Below, in pieces: positions 1,878 through 16,190 of a stretch of 21,714 nt of DNA. The notes under the pieces are model-generated. The model was not told where the DNA came from and did no database searches. It saw nothing but the letters and a program-made list of their open reading frames with translations. The position numbers and the translations under genes are program-made. The stretch's first letter is position 1; each line of letters starts with the position of its first letter. Source of the stretch: a virus (Duplodnaviria; Heunggongvirae; Uroviricota; Caudoviricetes); IMG/VR virus record IMGVR_UViG_3300029643_000012, one strand, 5' to 3'.

Positions 1878-2315
1878 TGAACCGCCCCGGGAATCCTGGA
1901 GACTAAACTTCCTGAGAAAGAGGTAAACAGGATGACTAAAAATACTCGTTTTTCCCCCGAAGTCCGTCAACGGGCAGTCCGTATGGTTCTGGAAAGTCAG
2001 AGCGAATATGACTCACAATGGGCGACAATTTGTTCCATTGCTCCAAAGATTGGCTGTACGCCGGAGACTCTGCGTGTCTGGGTTCGCCAGCATGAGCGGG
2101 ATACCGGGGGCGGTGATGGAGGGCTCACCACCGCTGAACGTCAGCGTCTGAAAGAGCTGGAACGTGAAAATCGTGAACTGCGCCGCAGTAACGATATCCT
2201 TCGCCAGGCTTCCGCTTATTTTGCGAAGGCGGAGTTCGACCGCCTCTGGAAAAAATGATGCCACTGCTGGATAAGCTGCGTGAGCAGTACGGGGTCGGAC
2301 CGCTATGCAGCGAAC
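1878..2315 (+). mobile_element. Truncated IS3-family insertion sequence (IS629-like): left terminus, intact orfA, first ~19 codons of orfB
   Basis: Element starts TGAACCGCCCCGGG... at 1878. orfA translation matches IS629 OrfA as remembered. The next ORF begins [19 protein letters not shown] and then diverges into a stop after 28 codons, so the element is truncated near 2315 and no right inverted repeat is present. Confidence 0.7.
1932..2258 (+). CDS. IS3-family transposase OrfA (IS629-like)
   Basis: 108 aa; helix-turn-helix N-terminus and leucine-zipper-like C-terminus ([26 protein letters not shown]) typical of IS3-family OrfA. Confidence 0.8.
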
Positions 2316-10878: not shown

Positions 10879-10887
10879 AATGACTCC

Positions 10888-10964
10888 TGTGGATTGATCC
10901 AGTAATGACCTCAGAATTCCATCTGGATTTGTTCAGAACGCTCGGTTGCCGCCGGGCGTTTTTT
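10888..10964 (+). ncRNA. oop: OOP antisense RNA (promoter pO TTGAGT-17-CATAAT at 10853..10881; terminator hairpin 10939..10958 plus U-run)
   Basis: Plus-strand CGCTCGGTTGCCGCCGGGCG followed by TTTTTTATT matches the lambda oop terminator as remembered; a sigma70-like promoter lies about 77 nt upstream; the RNA overlaps the cII 3' end in antisense. Confidence 0.65.
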
Positions 10965-11207
10965 ATTGGTGAGTCCATCAAGCGCATACTTAAAAGCCCT
11001 GCTAATCGGACTGATGTCTGATGCCATTCCGAAAGCACACAAGACCGAAGCAATAAATCTCCAGTCCGTTCTGCTTATCTTCGATTCATGACAGCCAATC
11101 ATCTTTGCCAGACCGCGCTGGGTAATAGCTGACAGATTGATAAGTAAATCTGTTTCTGCGCGATCAACGTCACGCTGTGATAGTTTGCTGTAACTTGTTC
11201 TTTCCAT
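10911..11207 (-). CDS. cII: CII transcriptional activator (lambda-type C-terminus, divergent N-terminal region)
   Basis: 98 aa ending ...LTNKKRPAATERSEQIQMEF, identical to the lambda CII C-terminus; the N-terminal two-thirds differ. Confidence 0.8.
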   Translation of the reverse strand: MERTSYSKLSQRDVDRAETDLLINLSAITQRGLAKMIGCHESKISRTDWRFIASVLCAFGMASDISPISRAFKYALDGLTNKKRPAATERSEQIQMEF

Positions 11208-11292
11208 TTCTTAAGATTTCCAATAGTGAATAGTTAGTTGAAAGGTATGCGTGGAAACGCATATGGCCTTAGTTGGTCAGATATCTTGGAAC

Positions 11293-11564: not shown

Positions 11565-11675
11565 ATGCCCTCCATAGTAAACACGAATAAAAAAATACAA
11601 TATGTACTTTGCGAATACAAGTAAAAATACACATTGTGCATGGATGGTTCCAGTACAGAGCGTAATAATAAGGAC
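11565..11675. promoter_or_regulatory. OR region: divergent pR (towards cro) and pRM (towards cI) with operator-like TACA/TGTA repeats
   Basis: 110 bp AT-rich spacer between divergent cro and cI; minus-strand candidate pR TTGTAT-17-TATTTT shares the spacer core AAAGTACATAT with the pL candidate; several TACAA...TTGTA dyads. Confidence 0.5.
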
Positions 11676-12335
11676 ATGAAAATGAAATGGTATGAACTGG
11701 CTAGATCCAGAATGAAAGAGCTCGGCATAACTCAAGAGAAGTTAGCCGAAGAGCTAGGTATGACGCAGGGTGGGATTGGACACTGGTTGCGCGGATCTCG
11801 TCATCCATCTCTTAGTGATATTGGTGTGGTGTTTAAATACCTTGGTATTGATAACATATCATTCAACCACGACGGGACATTTTCACCTGTTGGCGAATAC
11901 TCATCGGCCCCAGTTAAAAAACAATATGAGTACCCTGTTTTTTCTCATGTTCAGGCTGGGATGTTCTCTCCAGAACTCAGAACCTTTACCAAAGGCGATG
12001 CGGAGAGATTGGTAAGCACAACCAAAAAAGCCAGTGACTCTGCATTCTGGCTTGAGGTTGAAGGTAACTCAATGACCGCACCAACAGGTTCCAAACCCAG
12101 CTTTCCTGACGGGATGTTAATTCTGGTTGACCCTGAGCAAGCTGTTGAGCCCGGCGATTTCTGCATAGCCAGACTTGGTGGTGATGAATTTACCTTCAAG
12201 AAACTGATCAGGGATAGCGGTCAGGTGTTTCTACAGCCACTAAACCCACAATACCCAATGATCCCATGCAATGAGAGTTGTTCCGTTGTGGGGAAAGTTA
12301 TCGCCAGCCAATGGCCTGAAGAGACGTTTGGGTGA
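11676..12335 (+). CDS. cI: CI repressor (S24 LexA-like autopeptidase C-terminal domain; non-lambda N-terminal DNA-binding domain)
   Basis: C-terminus ...[46 protein letters not shown] matches lambda CI; N-terminal HTH ([23 protein letters not shown]) is a different immunity type. Start at 11676 (MKMKW) or 11682 (MKW); the second has better ribosome-binding-site spacing. Confidence 0.85.
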
Positions 12336-12374
12336 TGAAACCACTTTTATCTACAATTTACAGGGCGGTAAACA

Positions 12375-12932
12375 TTGGCAAAAATAGATGATTATCAGCC
12401 AAGCCAAGTAGAAGTTGATAAAGTACTTTATTGTAAAAAAATAGTTAACTTTTCTGGCGTTAAATGGAAACAGAAACCAAGTCGCTCTGATATGTGGCTA
12501 CAAGCCCATATCATCCCCTTGGATGAGGATTGTATACCTATACAAGGGCTAAAGTTTGAACTGAAATGGAAACCAGATCAGGATTCAGAACCTGATGACC
12601 CGATTTCTTACCCTAAAATAAATATTATTGCTTTCTATCATAACAAGAGGGTTTTCGCGGTAGATACCTATCACTTTGACAAACACACGAATAGTTACAA
12701 GGTCGATCATCCGAAGTACCAAGATATCATTTACGGTGCTCACTACCATGTATACTATGAAGAAGCTGGATACTATAGTGATAGAATAGCGTTTCCAATC
12801 GAAGATGACATAAACCCAGATGACCTGGTAGGGTATTGGAATTACTTCTGTAAACATCTGAACATAACTTACTCTGGGAGAATACCTTTACCGCTTGAAG
12901 ATGAGTCGGGGCAAATGGGGTTTGGAATATGA
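12375..12932 (+). CDS. Unrecognised protein, 185 aa; first gene of a two-gene operon in the rexA-rexB position
   Basis: Uninterrupted 185-codon ORF immediately downstream of cI on the same strand; AT-rich; acidic, Tyr/His-rich (YHFDKHTNSYKVDHPKYQDIIYGAHYHVYYEEAGYY); no family recognised. Confidence 0.65.
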   Translation: MAKIDDYQPSQVEVDKVLYCKKIVNFSGVKWKQKPSRSDMWLQAHIIPLDEDCIPIQGLKFELKWKPDQDSEPDDPISYPKINIIAFYHNKRVFAVDTYHFDKHTNSYKVDHPKYQDIIYGAHYHVYYEEAGYYSDRIAFPIEDDINPDDLVGYWNYFCKHLNITYSGRIPLPLEDESGQMGFGI

Positions 12933-13681
12933 TGTGCTCAACAGTGATCTCACAACTAGGTTTCGAATGCCATCCAATAGGCAAGACCTTGAGAATTATC
13001 AGTCCATTCACTTACTGTGATGATGGAGAGCATGTCGGTGCCTTTATCCGTGAAGTCAATGGTAGGTATTTAGTTAGTGACAGATGCGATGCCTTAATGA
13101 ATATGGAGGCAAGAGGGATCTCGCTTACCAAAAAACGACTTGATGAGATACGACAATTACTGCTTAAAGAAGGCGCAGAACTCAATGCTCGAGGAGAAAT
13201 CATTGCTTGGGCAACAGAAAAGGATGTCGGTGCGATTACATCGAACATAATTAGAGCTGGTATACTCGCATCAACTTTGTCGTTAGACTGGTATCAGCCA
13301 GTTCAAGCTGAAAAGTTTGAAAGTATGGTTATTGATTATCTATATCACACAGAGCTTAGAGACGCACTTTCTCTTCGTGAAAACGTATATGGCTTGAGTG
13401 GACATCAAATTACCGTCCCTGTAACAATAAAAACCGACATACCTAAATACGTTTTTACATCAAGCGTGAAACACGGAGGAAGCTGGAATAGTGCTTACTC
13501 ATTGCTTGGGAAACTAATTGATCTTAAAGCTTCAAGTGAGGAGTATAACAACAGATTTGTTGTTATAGACAGCGAAGCAATTGGTGATCAAATGCAACAA
13601 CTCTCCTTACTCTTCCATGAATCAAGCCAAGTTCTACCATTCTCCAAAAGAGAGACTTGGGTTAAGAGACTTGCAGCATAA
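12929..13681 (+). CDS. Unrecognised protein, 250 aa; second gene of the two-gene operon
   Basis: ATG at 12929 overlaps the upstream stop (ATGA); 250-codon ORF followed by a rho-independent terminator; no family recognised. Confidence 0.65.
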   Translation: MMCSTVISQLGFECHPIGKTLRIISPFTYCDDGEHVGAFIREVNGRYLVSDRCDALMNMEARGISLTKKRLDEIRQLLLKEGAELNARGEIIAWATEKDVGAITSNIIRAGILASTLSLDWYQPVQAEKFESMVIDYLYHTELRDALSLRENVYGLSGHQITVPVTIKTDIPKYVFTSSVKHGGSWNSAYSLLGKLIDLKASSEEYNNRFVVIDSEAIGDQMQQLSLLFHESSQVLPFSKRETWVKRLAA

Positions 13682-13685
13682 TACA

Positions 13686-13712
13686 ACCCGGCCTCAGCGC
13701 CGGGTTTTCTTT
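13686..13712 (+). terminator. Rho-independent terminator ending the cI / two-gene operon
   Basis: ACCCGGC-CTCAGC-GCCGGGT followed by TTTCTTT, directly after the stop at 13681. Confidence 0.7.
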
Positions 13713-13899
13713 GCCTCACGTTCGCCCACCTAAAAACACATAACCAATTATATTTATTGAAAAATAAATAGATGCAACCCACTAAACCACGCAATTCTGA
13801 TCTCTCCTTACATCGCCGAGGCAATACATCCACGCTAAAAAACAACACTATTAAATACAAAGCGTTATAAAAAACCACGCCAACTTACAACAAATTGTA

Positions 13900-13928
13900 T
13901 TGATCTTGTAAAGTACATATCGTACTAT
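13900..13928 (+). promoter_or_regulatory. Candidate pL promoter (TTGATC-17-TACTAT) with operator-like dyads
   Basis: Sigma70-like hexamers with 17 bp spacing about 45 bp upstream of nutL boxA; TACAACAAATTGTA dyad immediately upstream. Confidence 0.5.
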
Positions 13929-13974
13929 TTAACCGTCAGCAGGACGCTGGAAGCCAAATGGAACAGACTGGCAG

Positions 13975-14019
13975 GCTCTTTAAACAACGTCGACTCTCGA
14001 CTACGTGGCTGAAAAGCCA
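13975..14019 (+). promoter_or_regulatory. nutL: nutL: boxA GCTCTTTAA (13975..13983) and boxB hairpin (14006..14019)
   Basis: GCTCTTTAAACAACG...CTACGTGGCTGAAAAGCCAG: same architecture as nutR, with a compensatory stem change (GGC/GCC here, CGC/GCG in nutR). Confidence 0.65.
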
Positions 14020-14117
14020 GATCACCCAACCACATAAGCTGTGGGATGCAATGCCGAAGCAACCGTCTCAGGAGGAGCTTCGAGATTGCATCGCCAAAGT
14101 TTATTCGGGAGGAATCC

Positions 14118-14390
14118 ATGTCCAGAAAAACAGAATTTAAAGGCACCGCAGCTTCTCGCCGTAGAGCTCGTCGCGCAAATCTGCAAAGTCAGGAGGCGAT
14201 CAGCTCCGACAAGCTACACAGGCCAACCCCTTCACGAGTGGTCTTGCAATGCAAGCTCAAACCAGCAATGAGAGCAGAAGTGATAACTCTGACAACGTTG
14301 ACCAGAAAATATGAAGGTTCAACTTGTCTTCCGAACGTAGCTCTTTACGCGGCAGGCTACCGGAAATCAAAACAACTGACGGCGAGATGA
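14118..14390 (+). CDS. N: N-type antiterminator (arginine-rich motif near the N-terminus)
   Basis: MSRKTEFKGTAASRRRARRANLQSQ...: arginine-rich RNA-binding motif like the N proteins of P22 and phage 21; GGGAGG ribosome-binding site; directly downstream of nutL. The track ORF from 14046 is an upstream extension. Confidence 0.7.
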   Translation: MSRKTEFKGTAASRRRARRANLQSQEAISSDKLHRPTPSRVVLQCKLKPAMRAEVITLTTLTRKYEGSTCLPNVALYAAGYRKSKQLTAR

Positions 14391-14406
14391 TAAATTCATT
14401 TGCTAA

Positions 14407-14988
14407 TTACTTGTTTTTGCCATGCTTATCCTGAGCGATAAGTTCATCCATAAGGCTGTCTGCCTTCCCGGCAAACCTAATGTAGCACTCATGTCTATAG
14501 CTTTCAGGGATAACGAAACGGTCGGTATCAGGATATCCAACAGCAGGAGGCCTTCGAACGAGGAGTCCTTTTTTGAGCAATGAAATTGATTCATGAGCGC
14601 CCTTTTCCGTTTGTAGCTGGTTATTAGCGGCTACAGCGAATGCCAAATACGCTCTTTCTCCAAGAGTTAACGAATCAAACAAATCTTGCACATATTTTTC
14701 TTCTTTAGATTTGCGCTTCTGAGCAGCGAATACCTCAATTCTTTCAGTCACAGCGTGATAAGCGGAATTAACAACGCCGTTAAGCACATAGCTAACGCAA
14801 AACAACAGGATGTAATACATCCAGTAATGAGGAAGGATTTCTGGATTATGCAGGTTTATCCATTCTTTTACGCTTACCGGCATAACAATAATCAATATGA
14901 TCAGGATGATTAGCATATGAATCAACTGTTTAAGTGTCATTCCTTGCAGGAAAAAATGCATTAGTTCCTGCCACCATGAGTTGTTCAT
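14407..14988 (-). CDS. sieB: Superinfection exclusion protein SieB
   Basis: 193 aa MNNSWWQELMHFFLQGMTLKQLIHMLIILIILIIVMPVSVKEW...; N-terminal membrane segments; matches lambda SieB as remembered; convergent with N as in lambda. Confidence 0.8.
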   Translation of the reverse strand: MNNSWWQELMHFFLQGMTLKQLIHMLIILIILIIVMPVSVKEWINLHNPEILPHYWMYYILLFCVSYVLNGVVNSAYHAVTERIEVFAAQKRKSKEEKYVQDLFDSLTLGERAYLAFAVAANNQLQTEKGAHESISLLKKGLLVRRPPAVGYPDTDRFVIPESYRHECYIRFAGKADSLMDELIAQDKHGKNK

Positions 14989-15131: not shown

Positions 15132-15218
15132 ATGGAAGAAGAATTTGAAGAGTTCGAAGAGCATCCTCAAGATGTGATGGAACAATACCAGGACTATCCG
15201 TATGACTACGACTATTGA
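15132..15218 (+). CDS. Small acidic ORF (28 aa, lambda orf28-like) overlapping the ral start
   Basis: MEEEFEEFEEHPQDVMEQYQDYPYDYDY; found by hand, below the track cut-off. Confidence 0.35.
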   Translation: MEEEFEEFEEHPQDVMEQYQDYPYDYDY

Positions 15219-15402
15219 TACAAATCAATGGTGTGGACAATTCAAACGATGCAATGGATGCAAGCTGCAATCGGAATGCATGGTTAAGCCTGAAGAAATG
15301 TTTCCTGTAATGGAAGATGGGAAATATGTCGATAAATGGGCAATACGAACGACGGCAATGATTGCCAGAGAACTTGGTAAACAGAACAACAAAGCTGCCT
15401 GA
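15202..15402 (+). CDS. ral: Restriction alleviation protein Ral
   Basis: 66 aa MTTTIDTNQWCGQFKRCNGCKLQSECMVKPEEMFPVMEDGKYVDKW... matches lambda Ral. Confidence 0.85.
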   Translation: MTTTIDTNQWCGQFKRCNGCKLQSECMVKPEEMFPVMEDGKYVDKWAIRTTAMIARELGKQNNKAA

Positions 15403-15953: not shown

Positions 15954-16025
15954 GCGCGGCGTTACCGCATACCAATTACGCTTCACTCGAGGCGTTTTTC
16001 GTTATGTATAAATAAGGAGCACACC

Positions 16026-16190
16026 ATGCAATATGCCATTGCAGGGTGGCCTGTTGCTGGCTGCCCTTCCGAATCTTTACTTGAACGAATCACCCGTAAA
16101 TTACGTGACGGATGGAAACGCCTTATCGACATACTTAATCAGCCAGGAGTCCCAAAAAATGGATCAAACAATTATGGCTATCCAGACTAA
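16026..16190 (+). CDS. cIII: CIII (FtsH inhibitor that stabilises CII)
   Basis: Hand translation from the ATG at 16026: [54 protein letters not shown], matching lambda CIII. Not in the ORF track (under 60 aa). Confidence 0.85.
   Translation: MQYAIAGWPVAGCPSESLLERITRKLRDGWKRLIDILNQPGVPKNGSNNYGYPD

What the first reader, a model, noticed from the sequence alone, without database searches (positions are those of the whole stretch)
12375..13681. Unrecognised two-gene AT-rich operon in the rexAB slot, immediately downstream of cI
Seen in sequence: two co-directional ORFs of 185 and 250 codons, translationally coupled by an ATGA overlap at 12929..12932, start 40 bp after the cI stop on the same strand and end at a hairpin-plus-U-run terminator (13686..13712). 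The segment is visibly AT-rich (roughly one-third GC by eye in the first 120 bp) while the flanking cI and N regions are near 50% GC, which suggests horizontal acquisition. Established knowledge: in lambda this position holds rexA-rexB, an exclusion system transcribed with cI from pRM in the lysogen, and the cI-to-N interval is a recognised hotspot for prophage-encoded anti-phage modules. Inference: this pair is a lysogen-expressed defence, exclusion or abortive-infection module. I do not recognise either protein as RexA/RexB or any named family. The first is acidic and Tyr/His-rich with no obvious transmembrane segment; the second has no motif I can assign.
Basis: partly seen in the sequence, partly recalled or inferred. 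Interest (0 to 1): 0.88.

Follow-up and report, generated by a model that had tools for sequence, protein, structure and literature searches.

The report
Untested two-gene cassette behind prophage repressor
Right after the repressor gene of a lambda-like E. coli prophage (also present in the probiotic strain Nissle 1917) sits a conserved pair of coupled genes that two computational screens flag as a likely anti-phage defence system, but nobody has tested it and one of its proteins resembles no known structure.

Summary
orfA (12375..12932, TTG start) and orfB (12929..13681, ATGA overlap) follow cI on the same strand with no terminator in between. They end just before a hairpin terminator at 13685. 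The pair has 39.6% GC against 46% for the window.

Comparison with phages that share this cI and N shows the exchangeable cassette is 12337..13684, so the terminator belongs to the shared backbone. Both genes are under strong purifying selection. They stay paired even where orfA identity falls to about 22%. In nearly every full-context locus they lie downstream of an HTH plus S24-peptidase repressor, from Escherichia to Pseudomonas phages.

orfB combines DUF1828 (type III secretion chaperone-like fold) with DUF1829 (PD-(D/E)xK nuclease fold), but it has no conserved catalytic triad. orfA gives a confident model with no structural neighbour, and it carries an invariant Asp/Asn/His cluster.

The pair hits the PADLOC candidate system PDC-M24 weakly. 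The exact proteins are listed as "Predicted novel defense gene" by DefensePredictor (Science 2026), but they were not among the units that study tested.

Verdict: this is a real cargo cassette, probably expressed in the lysogen, and most likely an anti-phage system. Neither its function nor its mechanism has been shown. Interest is moderate.

The parts
11640..12335 (+). cI-type repressor gene (HTH_3 + Peptidase_S24). It is the upstream gene of the presumed operon. The longest ORF starts at 11634; RefSeq starts it at 11640.
   Evidence: Pfam: Peptidase_S24 1.3e-28, HTH_3 2.1e-10. Annotated as a LexA family regulator in ev207.
11590..11610 (.). Operator-like sequence on the oR side. It pairs with 13910..13930.
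   Evidence: 21-nt inverted pair, 86% complementary, flanking cI and the cassette. The function as an operator is inferred.
12336..12374 (+). 39-nt cI-orfA spacer with no terminator-like hairpin.
12337..13684 (+). Exchangeable cargo cassette, made up of the spacer, orfA and orfB.
   Evidence: Homology with same-cI phages 2B8, 2G7b and Stx2a_WGPS8 ends at 12333-12337 and resumes at 13684/13685.
12375..12932 (+). orfA: 185 aa, soluble, TTG start. It has an invariant K22, W31, R92, D97, N106, G121, H123, H125, F158 and P173, with H104 nearly invariant. The C-terminal tail (about 171-185) is conserved but predicted disordered.
   Evidence: phrog_2017 at 6e-67.
12929..13681 (+). orfB: 250 aa, soluble. 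The N-terminal DUF1828 domain (aa about 1-121) has a type III secretion chaperone-like fold. The C-terminal DUF1829 domain (aa about 127-250) has a PD-(D/E)xK-like fold. The protein ends in ...RLAA.
13685..13715 (+). Intrinsic terminator of the cI operon (tIMM-like). It is part of the shared phage backbone, not of the cassette.
13910..13930 (.). Operator-like sequence on the oL/pL side.
14119..14390 (+). N antiterminator gene, the right border of the slot.
   Evidence: Annotated as N-like in ev207. An N_peptide Pfam hit in the related locus L002.

Best explanation
The pair is a horizontally exchanged accessory cassette carried in the cI-to-terminator slot of the immunity region of a lambdoid prophage. 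It is most likely transcribed together with cI (from pRM in the lysogen, and from pRE during establishment) and stopped at the shared terminator at 13685. Its most likely role is to protect the lysogen against other phages.

It belongs to a small family of two-protein modules: a DUF6978-like protein plus a DUF1828-DUF1829 protein, distantly related to the PADLOC candidate PDC-M24.

Proposed working, all inferred: the two proteins form a complex. orfB supplies a peptide- or protein-binding chaperone-like domain and a nuclease-fold domain that probably binds nucleic acid rather than cutting it in the canonical way. orfA is kept scarce by a non-ATG start codon. It carries a cluster of invariant Asp, Asn and His residues that looks like a metal site, and it is the candidate effector.

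By analogy with the validated system DS-6/HipAD, where a DUF1829 protein partners a toxic kinase, orfB would restrain or direct orfA until an infecting phage disturbs the complex.

What is shown: the anatomy, the conservation of the pairing, the slot, the folds and the conserved residues. What is inferred: co-transcription with cI, complex formation, the defence function, and which protein is the effector.
For: Anatomy:
- Same strand as cI, 39-nt spacer, no terminator or above-chance promoter in between, terminator directly after orfB.
- The cassette boundaries sit at the cI stop and the terminator stem.
- Other cargo occupies the same slot in same-cI phages and in prophage NC-SV.

Linkage to a repressor:
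- The pair lies downstream of an HTH+S24 repressor in all 7 species-representative genomes found: Izhakiella, Yersinia, two Providencia, Xenorhabdus, Pantoea and Thorsellia.
- The same holds in E. coli prophages with two other cI alleles, in distant relatives L020, L022 and L023, and in a Pseudomonas phage.

The two genes behave as a unit:
- orfA and orfB diverge together. In the second E. coli allele they are 41% and 51% identical to the window's proteins.
- Pairing with a stop/start overlap is kept down to about 22% orfA identity.
- Both are under purifying selection.

Defence predictions:
- PADLOC PDC-M24B at 4.7e-10 over the full length, and PDC-M24A at 4.8e-4. Only PDC-M24A models are hit across the orfA family.
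- DefensePredictor lists WP_000968518.1 (orfB, log-odds 5.64) and WP_001062368.1 (orfA, 4.90-5.42) as 'Predicted novel defense gene', above its strict cut-off of 4. These accessions are the CDS of the 100%-identical SF-468 locus.
- The cI-N region is a published hotspot that holds rexAB and bstA (PMC8585504).

Indications about mechanism:
- DS-6B (DUF3037+DUF1829) is the partner of a toxic kinase in a validated system.
- The orfA start codon is TTG or GTG in 12 of 15 loci, while orfB has ATG with an upstream AGGA/GGGG.
Against: - There is no experimental evidence of any kind for this pair. It is absent from the 94+24 units tested by DefensePredictor, and only 45% of the tested predictions worked.
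- PADLOC 'PDC' systems are themselves unverified candidates. Two that were tested elsewhere showed no activity (PMC12409345).
- The orfA hits to PDC-M24A and DUF6978 are weak and partial, below Pfam's threshold.
- The canonical D...(D/E)xK residues are not conserved in orfB: H159 and K173 vary across the family. A nuclease mechanism is therefore unsupported.
- orfA has no structural or sequence neighbour of known function, so naming it the effector is a guess.
- Read-through from pRM was not measured.
- One distant relative (L024) is not next to a recognisable repressor.
Confidence: 0.5

Rival explanations
1. The pair is a toxin-antitoxin-like addiction or stress module. orfA is a toxin made in small amounts. 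orfB is a labile antidote, degraded through its C-terminal LAA-like tail. The main role is to stabilise the prophage or control growth, with any anti-phage effect secondary.
For: - The two genes are small, overlapping and co-diverging.
- orfA has a conserved weak non-ATG start, while orfB has ATG plus a Shine-Dalgarno sequence.
- orfB ends in ...LAA, LVA or IAA in most homologues, including the Pseudomonas one. From my own knowledge, this resembles the ClpX recognition motif of the ssrA tag.
- The DUF1829 protein DS-6B is proposed to be antitoxin-like.
Against: - No hit to any toxin or antitoxin family in Pfam, NCBIfam or PADLOC.
- Loss of pRM transcription at induction would free the toxin during the phage's own lytic growth, yet phages carrying the pair (ev207, ev017, PhiR57_1) are deposited as phage isolates.
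- The LAA reading comes from memory and was not tested.
Confidence: 0.2
2. The pair modulates the prophage's own lysis-lysogeny switch or its induction, for example by acting on the S24 repressor or on operator DNA. It would not act against other phages.
For: - Near-obligate linkage to HTH+S24 repressors of many different specificities.
- orfB has a nuclease-fold domain without the catalytic triad, which is compatible with DNA binding.
- From my own knowledge, lambda RexA has been reported to bind DNA and to favour the switch to lytic growth.
Against: - Phages with the same cI do without the pair and carry unrelated cargo instead. It is therefore not part of the switch.
- The same pair serves at least nine different repressor alleles, which argues against a specific partnership with one repressor.
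- Linkage to the repressor is explained equally well by use of its promoter, as proposed for bstA.
Confidence: 0.12
3. The pair is a lysogenic-conversion gene set that benefits the host in some way unrelated to phages, such as stress tolerance, colonisation or virulence.
For: The same prophage carries other host-directed cargo (iss, an ompC-like porin) in SF-468. The pair is retained in Nissle 1917, whose prophage 3 was reported as non-inducible (PMC5987069).
Against: Both proteins are cytoplasmic, with no signal peptide or membrane segment. One has a nuclease-superfamily fold. Both score as defence-like in a model trained to separate defence genes from other genes. The slot is known for exclusion genes.
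Confidence: 0.08

Closest known systems
Lambda RexA/RexB exclusion system
   Same: Two co-directional genes in the same slot, between cI and the terminator upstream of pL/N. Presumed expression with cI in the lysogen. Horizontally exchangeable cargo.
   Different: No sequence relationship: no RexA hit in Pfam at E<=1. RexB is a membrane protein, whereas neither protein here has a membrane segment. The folds differ: a chaperone-like domain plus a PD-(D/E)xK-fold domain in orfB, and an unassigned beta-rich fold in orfA.
PADLOC phage defence candidate PDC-M24 (A+B)
   Same: Two adjacent genes. orfB matches the PDC-M24B models over their full length (4.7e-10 and 1.5e-7). The C-terminal third of orfA matches PDC-M24A (4.8e-4). 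Across the orfA family only PDC-M24A models are hit.
   Different: The matches are weak, and orfA covers only about 56 of 148 model positions, so PADLOC itself would probably not call the system (inference). PDC-M24 has no experimental support and is mentioned in the main text of no paper in the library.
DefensePredictor DS-6 / HipAD (HipA-like kinase + DUF3037-DUF1829 protein)
   Same: A two-gene prophage or mobile-element system whose second component carries a DUF1829 (PDDEXK clan) domain. That component is proposed to bind its partner and DNA.
   Different: The partner here is not a kinase. The N-terminal domain here is DUF1828, not DUF3037. DS-6 is validated and this pair is not.
BstA (Salmonella prophage BTP1)
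   Same: Sits directly downstream of the prophage repressor, presumably uses its promoter, and has its own terminator. The association with repressor loci is conserved across genera.
   Different: BstA is a single protein with no homology to the pair, and it has a DNA-based self-immunity element (aba). No such element has been shown here. The 5' 44 nt of orfA and the 3' 135 nt of orfB are, however, unusually conserved between alleles.
Pfam DUF1828/DUF1829 and DUF6978 families
   Same: orfB passes the DUF1828 threshold (33.5 bits against 22) and matches DUF1829 by published HHpred (98.8%). orfA shares the C-terminal part of DUF6978.
   Different: orfA stays below the DUF6978 threshold (22 bits against 29.6), and only 6 of 18 family members hit it. 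None of these families has a known function.

Membership tests
Lambda RexAB | A RexA homologue (Pfam PF15969) | tested here: not met
   The Pfam scan at E<=1 gives only DUF6978 for orfA and only DUF1828 for orfB.
Lambda RexAB | RexB: a polytopic inner-membrane protein | tested here: not met
   The highest 19-residue Kyte-Doolittle mean is 0.45 for orfA and 1.19 for orfB. Both AF2 models are globular.
Lambda RexAB | Position between cI and pL/N, on the same strand as cI | tested here: met
PADLOC PDC-M24 | A match to a PDC-M24B model | tested here: met
   PDLC04540 at 4.7e-10, covering residues 2-249 against model positions 4-254 of 256.
PADLOC PDC-M24 | A match to a PDC-M24A model in the adjacent gene | tested here: inconclusive
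   PDLC04536 at 4.8e-4, covering only residues 104-163. Between 1 and 4 of 18 family members hit each of the three PDC-M24A models, with a best E-value of 2.4e-4.
Pfam DUF1828 | A score above the gathering threshold | tested here: met
   33.5 bits against a cut-off of 22, over residues 26-110.
Pfam DUF1829 (clan PDDEXK) | A profile match in the C-terminal domain | tested here: inconclusive
Pfam DUF6978 | A score above the gathering threshold | tested here: not met
   22 bits against a cut-off of 29.6, covering the C-terminal part only. 6 of 18 relatives hit it, with a best E-value of 1e-4.
Active PD-(D/E)xK nuclease | The alpha-beta-beta-beta-alpha-beta core fold | tested here: met
Active PD-(D/E)xK nuclease | A conserved D...(D/E)xK catalytic motif | tested here: not met
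   Across the wide family, only G155, S157, G158, P164 and D198 are invariant in this domain. H159 and K173 vary, and no acidic residue sits two positions before K173.
Validated DefensePredictor systems (DS-1 to DS-45) | Listed among the cloned and tested transcription units (Table S6) | tested here: not met
   Neither accession, nor 'DUF1828', occurs in Table S6, S7 or S8. They occur only in the prediction tables S5 and S10.
Type II toxin-antitoxin | One protein is toxic and the other neutralises it | not testable with these tools
   Only indirect cues are available: the weak start codon of orfA and the LAA-like tail of orfB.

The most novel reading that the evidence does not exclude
The pair is a mechanistically new anti-phage system. 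Its effector (orfA) has a fold not seen in any solved structure and a new Asp/Asn/His metal centre. It is controlled by a DUF1828-DUF1829 partner whose nuclease-fold domain has lost catalysis and serves as a sensor or nucleic-acid anchor. The repressor's own promoter keeps the system switched on only in lysogens.
Probability: 0.25. Interest if true: 0.7.

Novelty: new variant of a known kind. Interest (0 to 1): 0.48.

Why it matters
If the pair defends, it would add a widespread system to the prophage arsenal. This allele covers at least 80% of the cassette in 239 of 5,426 complete E. coli genomes. Carriers include Nissle 1917, ATCC 25922, the type strain ATCC 11775 and many extraintestinal pathogenic strains. 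A second allele occurs on more than 1,000 contigs.

It could account for part of the unexplained resistance of Nissle 1917 to lambda and Stx phages. The authors of that study asked which other genes of prophage 3 are involved.

It would give a first function to DUF1828 and to the orfA family, and a second functional context for DUF1829. It would also offer a protein of unassigned fold with a likely metal site for mechanistic study.

If it does not defend, it is still a clean example of cassette exchange at fixed boundaries in the immunity region.

Tried and rejected
- NCBIfam gave nothing useful.
- Sequence searches of the PDB with family profiles gave no real hit. The apparent 3e-11 hit of orfA to a designed Kelch-type repeat protein is the sum of six sub-threshold repeats and was discarded.
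- Rfam found no known RNA in or next to the cassette.
- The search for related loci with the wide orfA alignment failed because no stretch was conserved enough.
- I suspected that prophage NC-SV of strain NC101, the subject of a 2026 paper on an sRNA at the 3' end of cI, was this prophage, which would have supplied phenotypes. On checking, NC-SV shares the icd site and the structural genes but has a different repressor and different cargo (DUF6932 plus a 310-aa protein). Its data therefore do not bear on this pair.
- I considered a cupin-like or HNH-like reading of the orfA G-x-H-x-H...E motif. I dropped both: no cupin or His-Me finger structure appears among the fold matches, and the spacing does not fit HNH.
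- Literature searches for PDC-M24, DUF1828 and DUF6978 gave no functional study.
- Brenes & Laub 2025 (Cell Host Microbe 33:1004) may describe the PhiR phages that carry the pair, but it is not in the library and could not be read.

Full report
WHAT IS THERE

The window is the early region of a lambda-like prophage. DNA from 11600 to 14400 is 100% identical to Escherichia phages ev207 and ev017 (Jouyvirus) and to PhiR57_1 and PhiR63_2. The cassette (12340..13720) is 100% identical to prophages in E. coli Nissle 1917, ATCC 25922, ATCC 11775, NU14, APEC O18, SF-468 and others. In all, 239 of 5,426 complete genomes hold at least 80% of it. In SF-468 the prophage sits at icd.

The gene order is cII and cro on the minus strand, followed on the plus strand by:
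- cI (11640..12335; HTH_3 + Peptidase_S24);
- orfA (12375..12932);
- orfB (12929..13681);
- a hairpin terminator (13685..13706 plus a T-run; -17.2 kcal/mol);
- an operator-like sequence at 13910..13930, which pairs with one at 11590..11610;
- N (14119..14390).

A sieB-like gene on the minus strand and ral come next.

The pair has 39.6% GC against 46.0% for the window, 46.3% for cI and 49.6% for N. That places it in the lowest 1.4% of windows of that length. The composition dip is real but modest.

THE CASSETTE AND ITS BOUNDARIES

Phages 2B8, 2G7b and Stx2a_WGPS8 share cI at 97-99% DNA identity and N at 93-99%. They carry a NYN-domain gene, a 283-aa gene or a 173-aa gene in place of the pair. 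Homology stops at 12333-12337, at the cI stop codon, and resumes at 13684/13685, the first base of the terminator stem. The exchangeable unit is therefore 12337..13684, and the terminator belongs to the backbone.

NC-SV of strain NC101 uses the same icd site. It has yet another repressor followed by a DUF6932 gene and a 310-aa gene. This confirms the slot as a cargo hotspot, as published for the cI-N region, which also holds rexAB and bstA (PMC8585504).

THE GENES ARE REAL AND FORM A UNIT

orfB has about 56 homologue clusters in Enterobacterales, Aeromonas and Thorsellia. orfA has about 20 clusters by word search. A profile search of 1.84 billion cluster representatives also returned only 20, so this is a small family.

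Non-synonymous differences are 0.14-0.37 per site against saturated synonymous differences of 0.70-0.89.

A second E. coli allele (180 aa + 258 aa; on more than 1,000 contigs) occupies the same slot behind two further cI alleles. Its proteins are 41% and 51% identical to orfA and orfB, so the partners diverge together. Between the two alleles, the first 44 nt of orfA and the last 135 nt of orfB are as well conserved as the neighbouring backbone (the aligned blocks that contain them are 96% and 88% identical), whereas the best-aligned part of the middle is about 65% identical.

The pairing holds in relatives with only 22-26% orfA identity. There too, a gene of 169-182 aa is followed, usually with a 4-bp overlap, by a DUF1828 protein of 245-258 aa.

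All seven species-representative genomes with a full locus show the pair directly behind an HTH+S24 repressor: Izhakiella, Yersinia, two Providencia, Xenorhabdus, Pantoea and Thorsellia. Three of them have a DUF3024 gene in between. The distant loci L020, L022 and L023 also lie behind an S24 protein, but L024 does not.

A D3-like Pseudomonas phage has an annotated orfB homologue behind its CI-like repressor. It also has an unannotated orfA homologue (L028:2420..3004) that overlaps the orfB homologue's start.

The orfA start codon is TTG or GTG in 12 of 15 loci. orfB starts with ATG, preceded by AGGA or GGGG.

THE PROTEINS

orfB:
- It passes Pfam's threshold for DUF1828.
- The AlphaFold2 model (pLDDT 85.9) has two domains.
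- The C-terminal domain resembles PD-(D/E)xK nucleases: Can2 at 10.4, BstEII at 10.0, PspGI and NgoMIV at 9.9.
- A published HHpred run on the identical protein assigns DUF1829 (clan PDDEXK) to residues 155-241.
- Across the wide family the invariant residues are S25, P26, D32, D51, E90, W121, F130, L138, G155, S157, G158, P164 and D198.
- H159 and K173 sit where the catalytic Asp and Lys would be, and both vary. Canonical nuclease chemistry is therefore not supported.
- Most homologues end in LAA, LVA or IAA.

orfA:
- It gives a confident model (pLDDT 87.8, pTM 0.84).
- Its invariant residues are K22, W31, R92, D97, N106, G121, H123, H125, F158 and P173, with H104 nearly invariant. They suggest a metal or catalytic site, but this is an inference.
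- Its last 15 residues or so are conserved (P..ED.SGQ.G..). The last nine (177-185) are modelled with pLDDT below 50, i.e. as disordered, as expected of a docking peptide.
- It is below threshold for DUF6978.

Neither protein has a membrane segment.

WHAT IS KNOWN ABOUT IT

PADLOC models of the candidate system PDC-M24 hit both proteins: B at 4.7e-10 over the full length, and A at 4.8e-4 over part of it. PDC systems are unverified candidates (PMC11514479, PMC12409345). No paper in the library mentions PDC-M24 in its main text.

DefensePredictor (DeWeirdt, Mahoney and Laub, Science 2026; PMC13092281) lists WP_000968518.1 and WP_001062368.1 as "Predicted novel defense gene". Their log-odds are 5.64 and 4.90-5.42, above the strict cut-off of 4. 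These two accessions are the CDS of the identical SF-468 locus. They are not among the 118 units that were cloned and tested. No validated system in that study contains DUF1828. The overall validation rate was 45%.

The same study validated DS-6/HipAD, in which a DUF3037-DUF1829 protein partners a HipA-like kinase and is predicted to bind it and DNA.

Bury et al. 2018 found that Nissle 1917 resists lambda and Stx phages for reasons only partly explained, and they pointed to other genes of this prophage.

INTERPRETATION

The best-supported reading is a cargo cassette co-transcribed with cI and expressed in the lysogen, most probably an anti-phage system of a type that has been predicted but never tested.

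The proposed mechanism is an A-B complex. orfB acts as a chaperone-like, nucleic-acid-binding partner. orfA acts as a scarce metal-dependent effector. This rests on translational coupling, co-divergence, the weak start codon of orfA, the conserved tail, the folds and the DS-6 analogy. None of it has been demonstrated.

The rivals are:
- a toxin-antitoxin or addiction role, which overlaps with defence;
- a role in the prophage's own switch, which is unlikely because same-cI phages lack the pair;
- a host-fitness function unrelated to phages.

It is not a RexAB homologue. It works from the same place and probably under the same expression logic, but with unrelated, soluble proteins.

NOVELTY AND SCORE

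The kind of system is well known: exclusion or defence cargo behind the prophage repressor. The exact genes are already in public prediction lists. What remains open is whether it defends, and how. The unassigned fold of orfA and the non-canonical nuclease-fold domain of orfB leave room for new chemistry.

I rate it a new variant of a known kind, with interest about 0.5.

One caveat: Brenes & Laub 2025 could not be read, so an earlier experimental test cannot be fully excluded. The same laboratory's 2026 tables still class both genes as novel predictions.

Noticed in passing
window 10884..11253 (-), gene 10911..11207: The 'phage repressor (pr)' gene of Nissle 1917 prophage 3, cloned by Bury et al. 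2018 and reported to give about 200-fold protection against lambda and Stx phages, maps by its cloning and qPCR primers to the cII-like gene of this prophage. It does not map to cI (11640..12335).
   Followed up: yes
window 12375..12418 and 13547..13681, compared with L002: Between the two E. coli alleles of the pair, the first 44 nt of orfA and the last 135 nt of orfB are as conserved as the flanking backbone (they lie in alignment blocks of 96% and 88% identity), while the best-aligned part of the middle is about 65% identical. This could mark recombination anchors for allele swapping, or a cis element comparable to the aba element of bstA.
   Followed up: partly
window 12375 (TTG); L002-L024 orfA starts: The orfA start codon is TTG or GTG in 12 of 15 loci, including distant relatives. 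orfB always starts with ATG, overlaps the orfA stop in most loci, and has an AGGA or GGGG 8-11 nt upstream.
   Followed up: yes
window 13670..13678 (orfB C-terminus ...RLAA): orfB and most homologues, including the Pseudomonas phage one, end in LAA, LVA or IAA. This resembles the ClpX recognition motif of the ssrA tag and may act as a degradation signal.
   Followed up: partly
L028:2420..3004 (Pseudomonas phage VB_PaD_phPA-G, PP083311): An unannotated orfA homologue carrying the same D...H.N...H.H and C-terminal GQMGF motifs. It overlaps the start of the annotated orfB homologue and lies downstream of the CI-like repressor.
   Followed up: yes
L030 (NC101, NZ_CP072787 2131370..2133546): Prophage NC-SV uses the same icd site and similar structural genes. 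Behind a different XRE-type repressor it carries a DUF6932 gene and a 310-aa gene. This is another two-gene cargo in the equivalent slot, and the published svsR sRNA is placed at the 3' end of that repressor gene.
   Followed up: partly
L010:4044..4385, L012:4053..4394, L013:4052..4393: A 113-aa DUF3024 gene is inserted between the repressor and orfA in the Izhakiella and Providencia prophages.
   Followed up: partly
window 14407..14988 (-) and 15202..15402 (+): A sieB-like superinfection-exclusion gene and a ral anti-restriction gene lie just beyond N. The immunity-proximal region therefore carries several exclusion or counter-defence functions.
   Followed up: no
window 2213..2312 (+): Rfam match to the ALIL pseudoknot (75.9 bits), the frameshift element of IS3-family transposases. 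This points to an insertion sequence in the left part of the window. The best whole-window matches in complete genomes also list IS3 transposases.
   Followed up: no
window 16013..16071 (+): Rfam match to the lambda cIII thermoregulator element (88.5 bits).
   Followed up: no
window 14045..14092 (+): A 16-nt inverted repeat (88% complementary, 16-nt loop) just upstream of the N start, overlapping a 60-codon ORF (13958..14140) that is annotated as hypothetical in SF-468.
   Followed up: no
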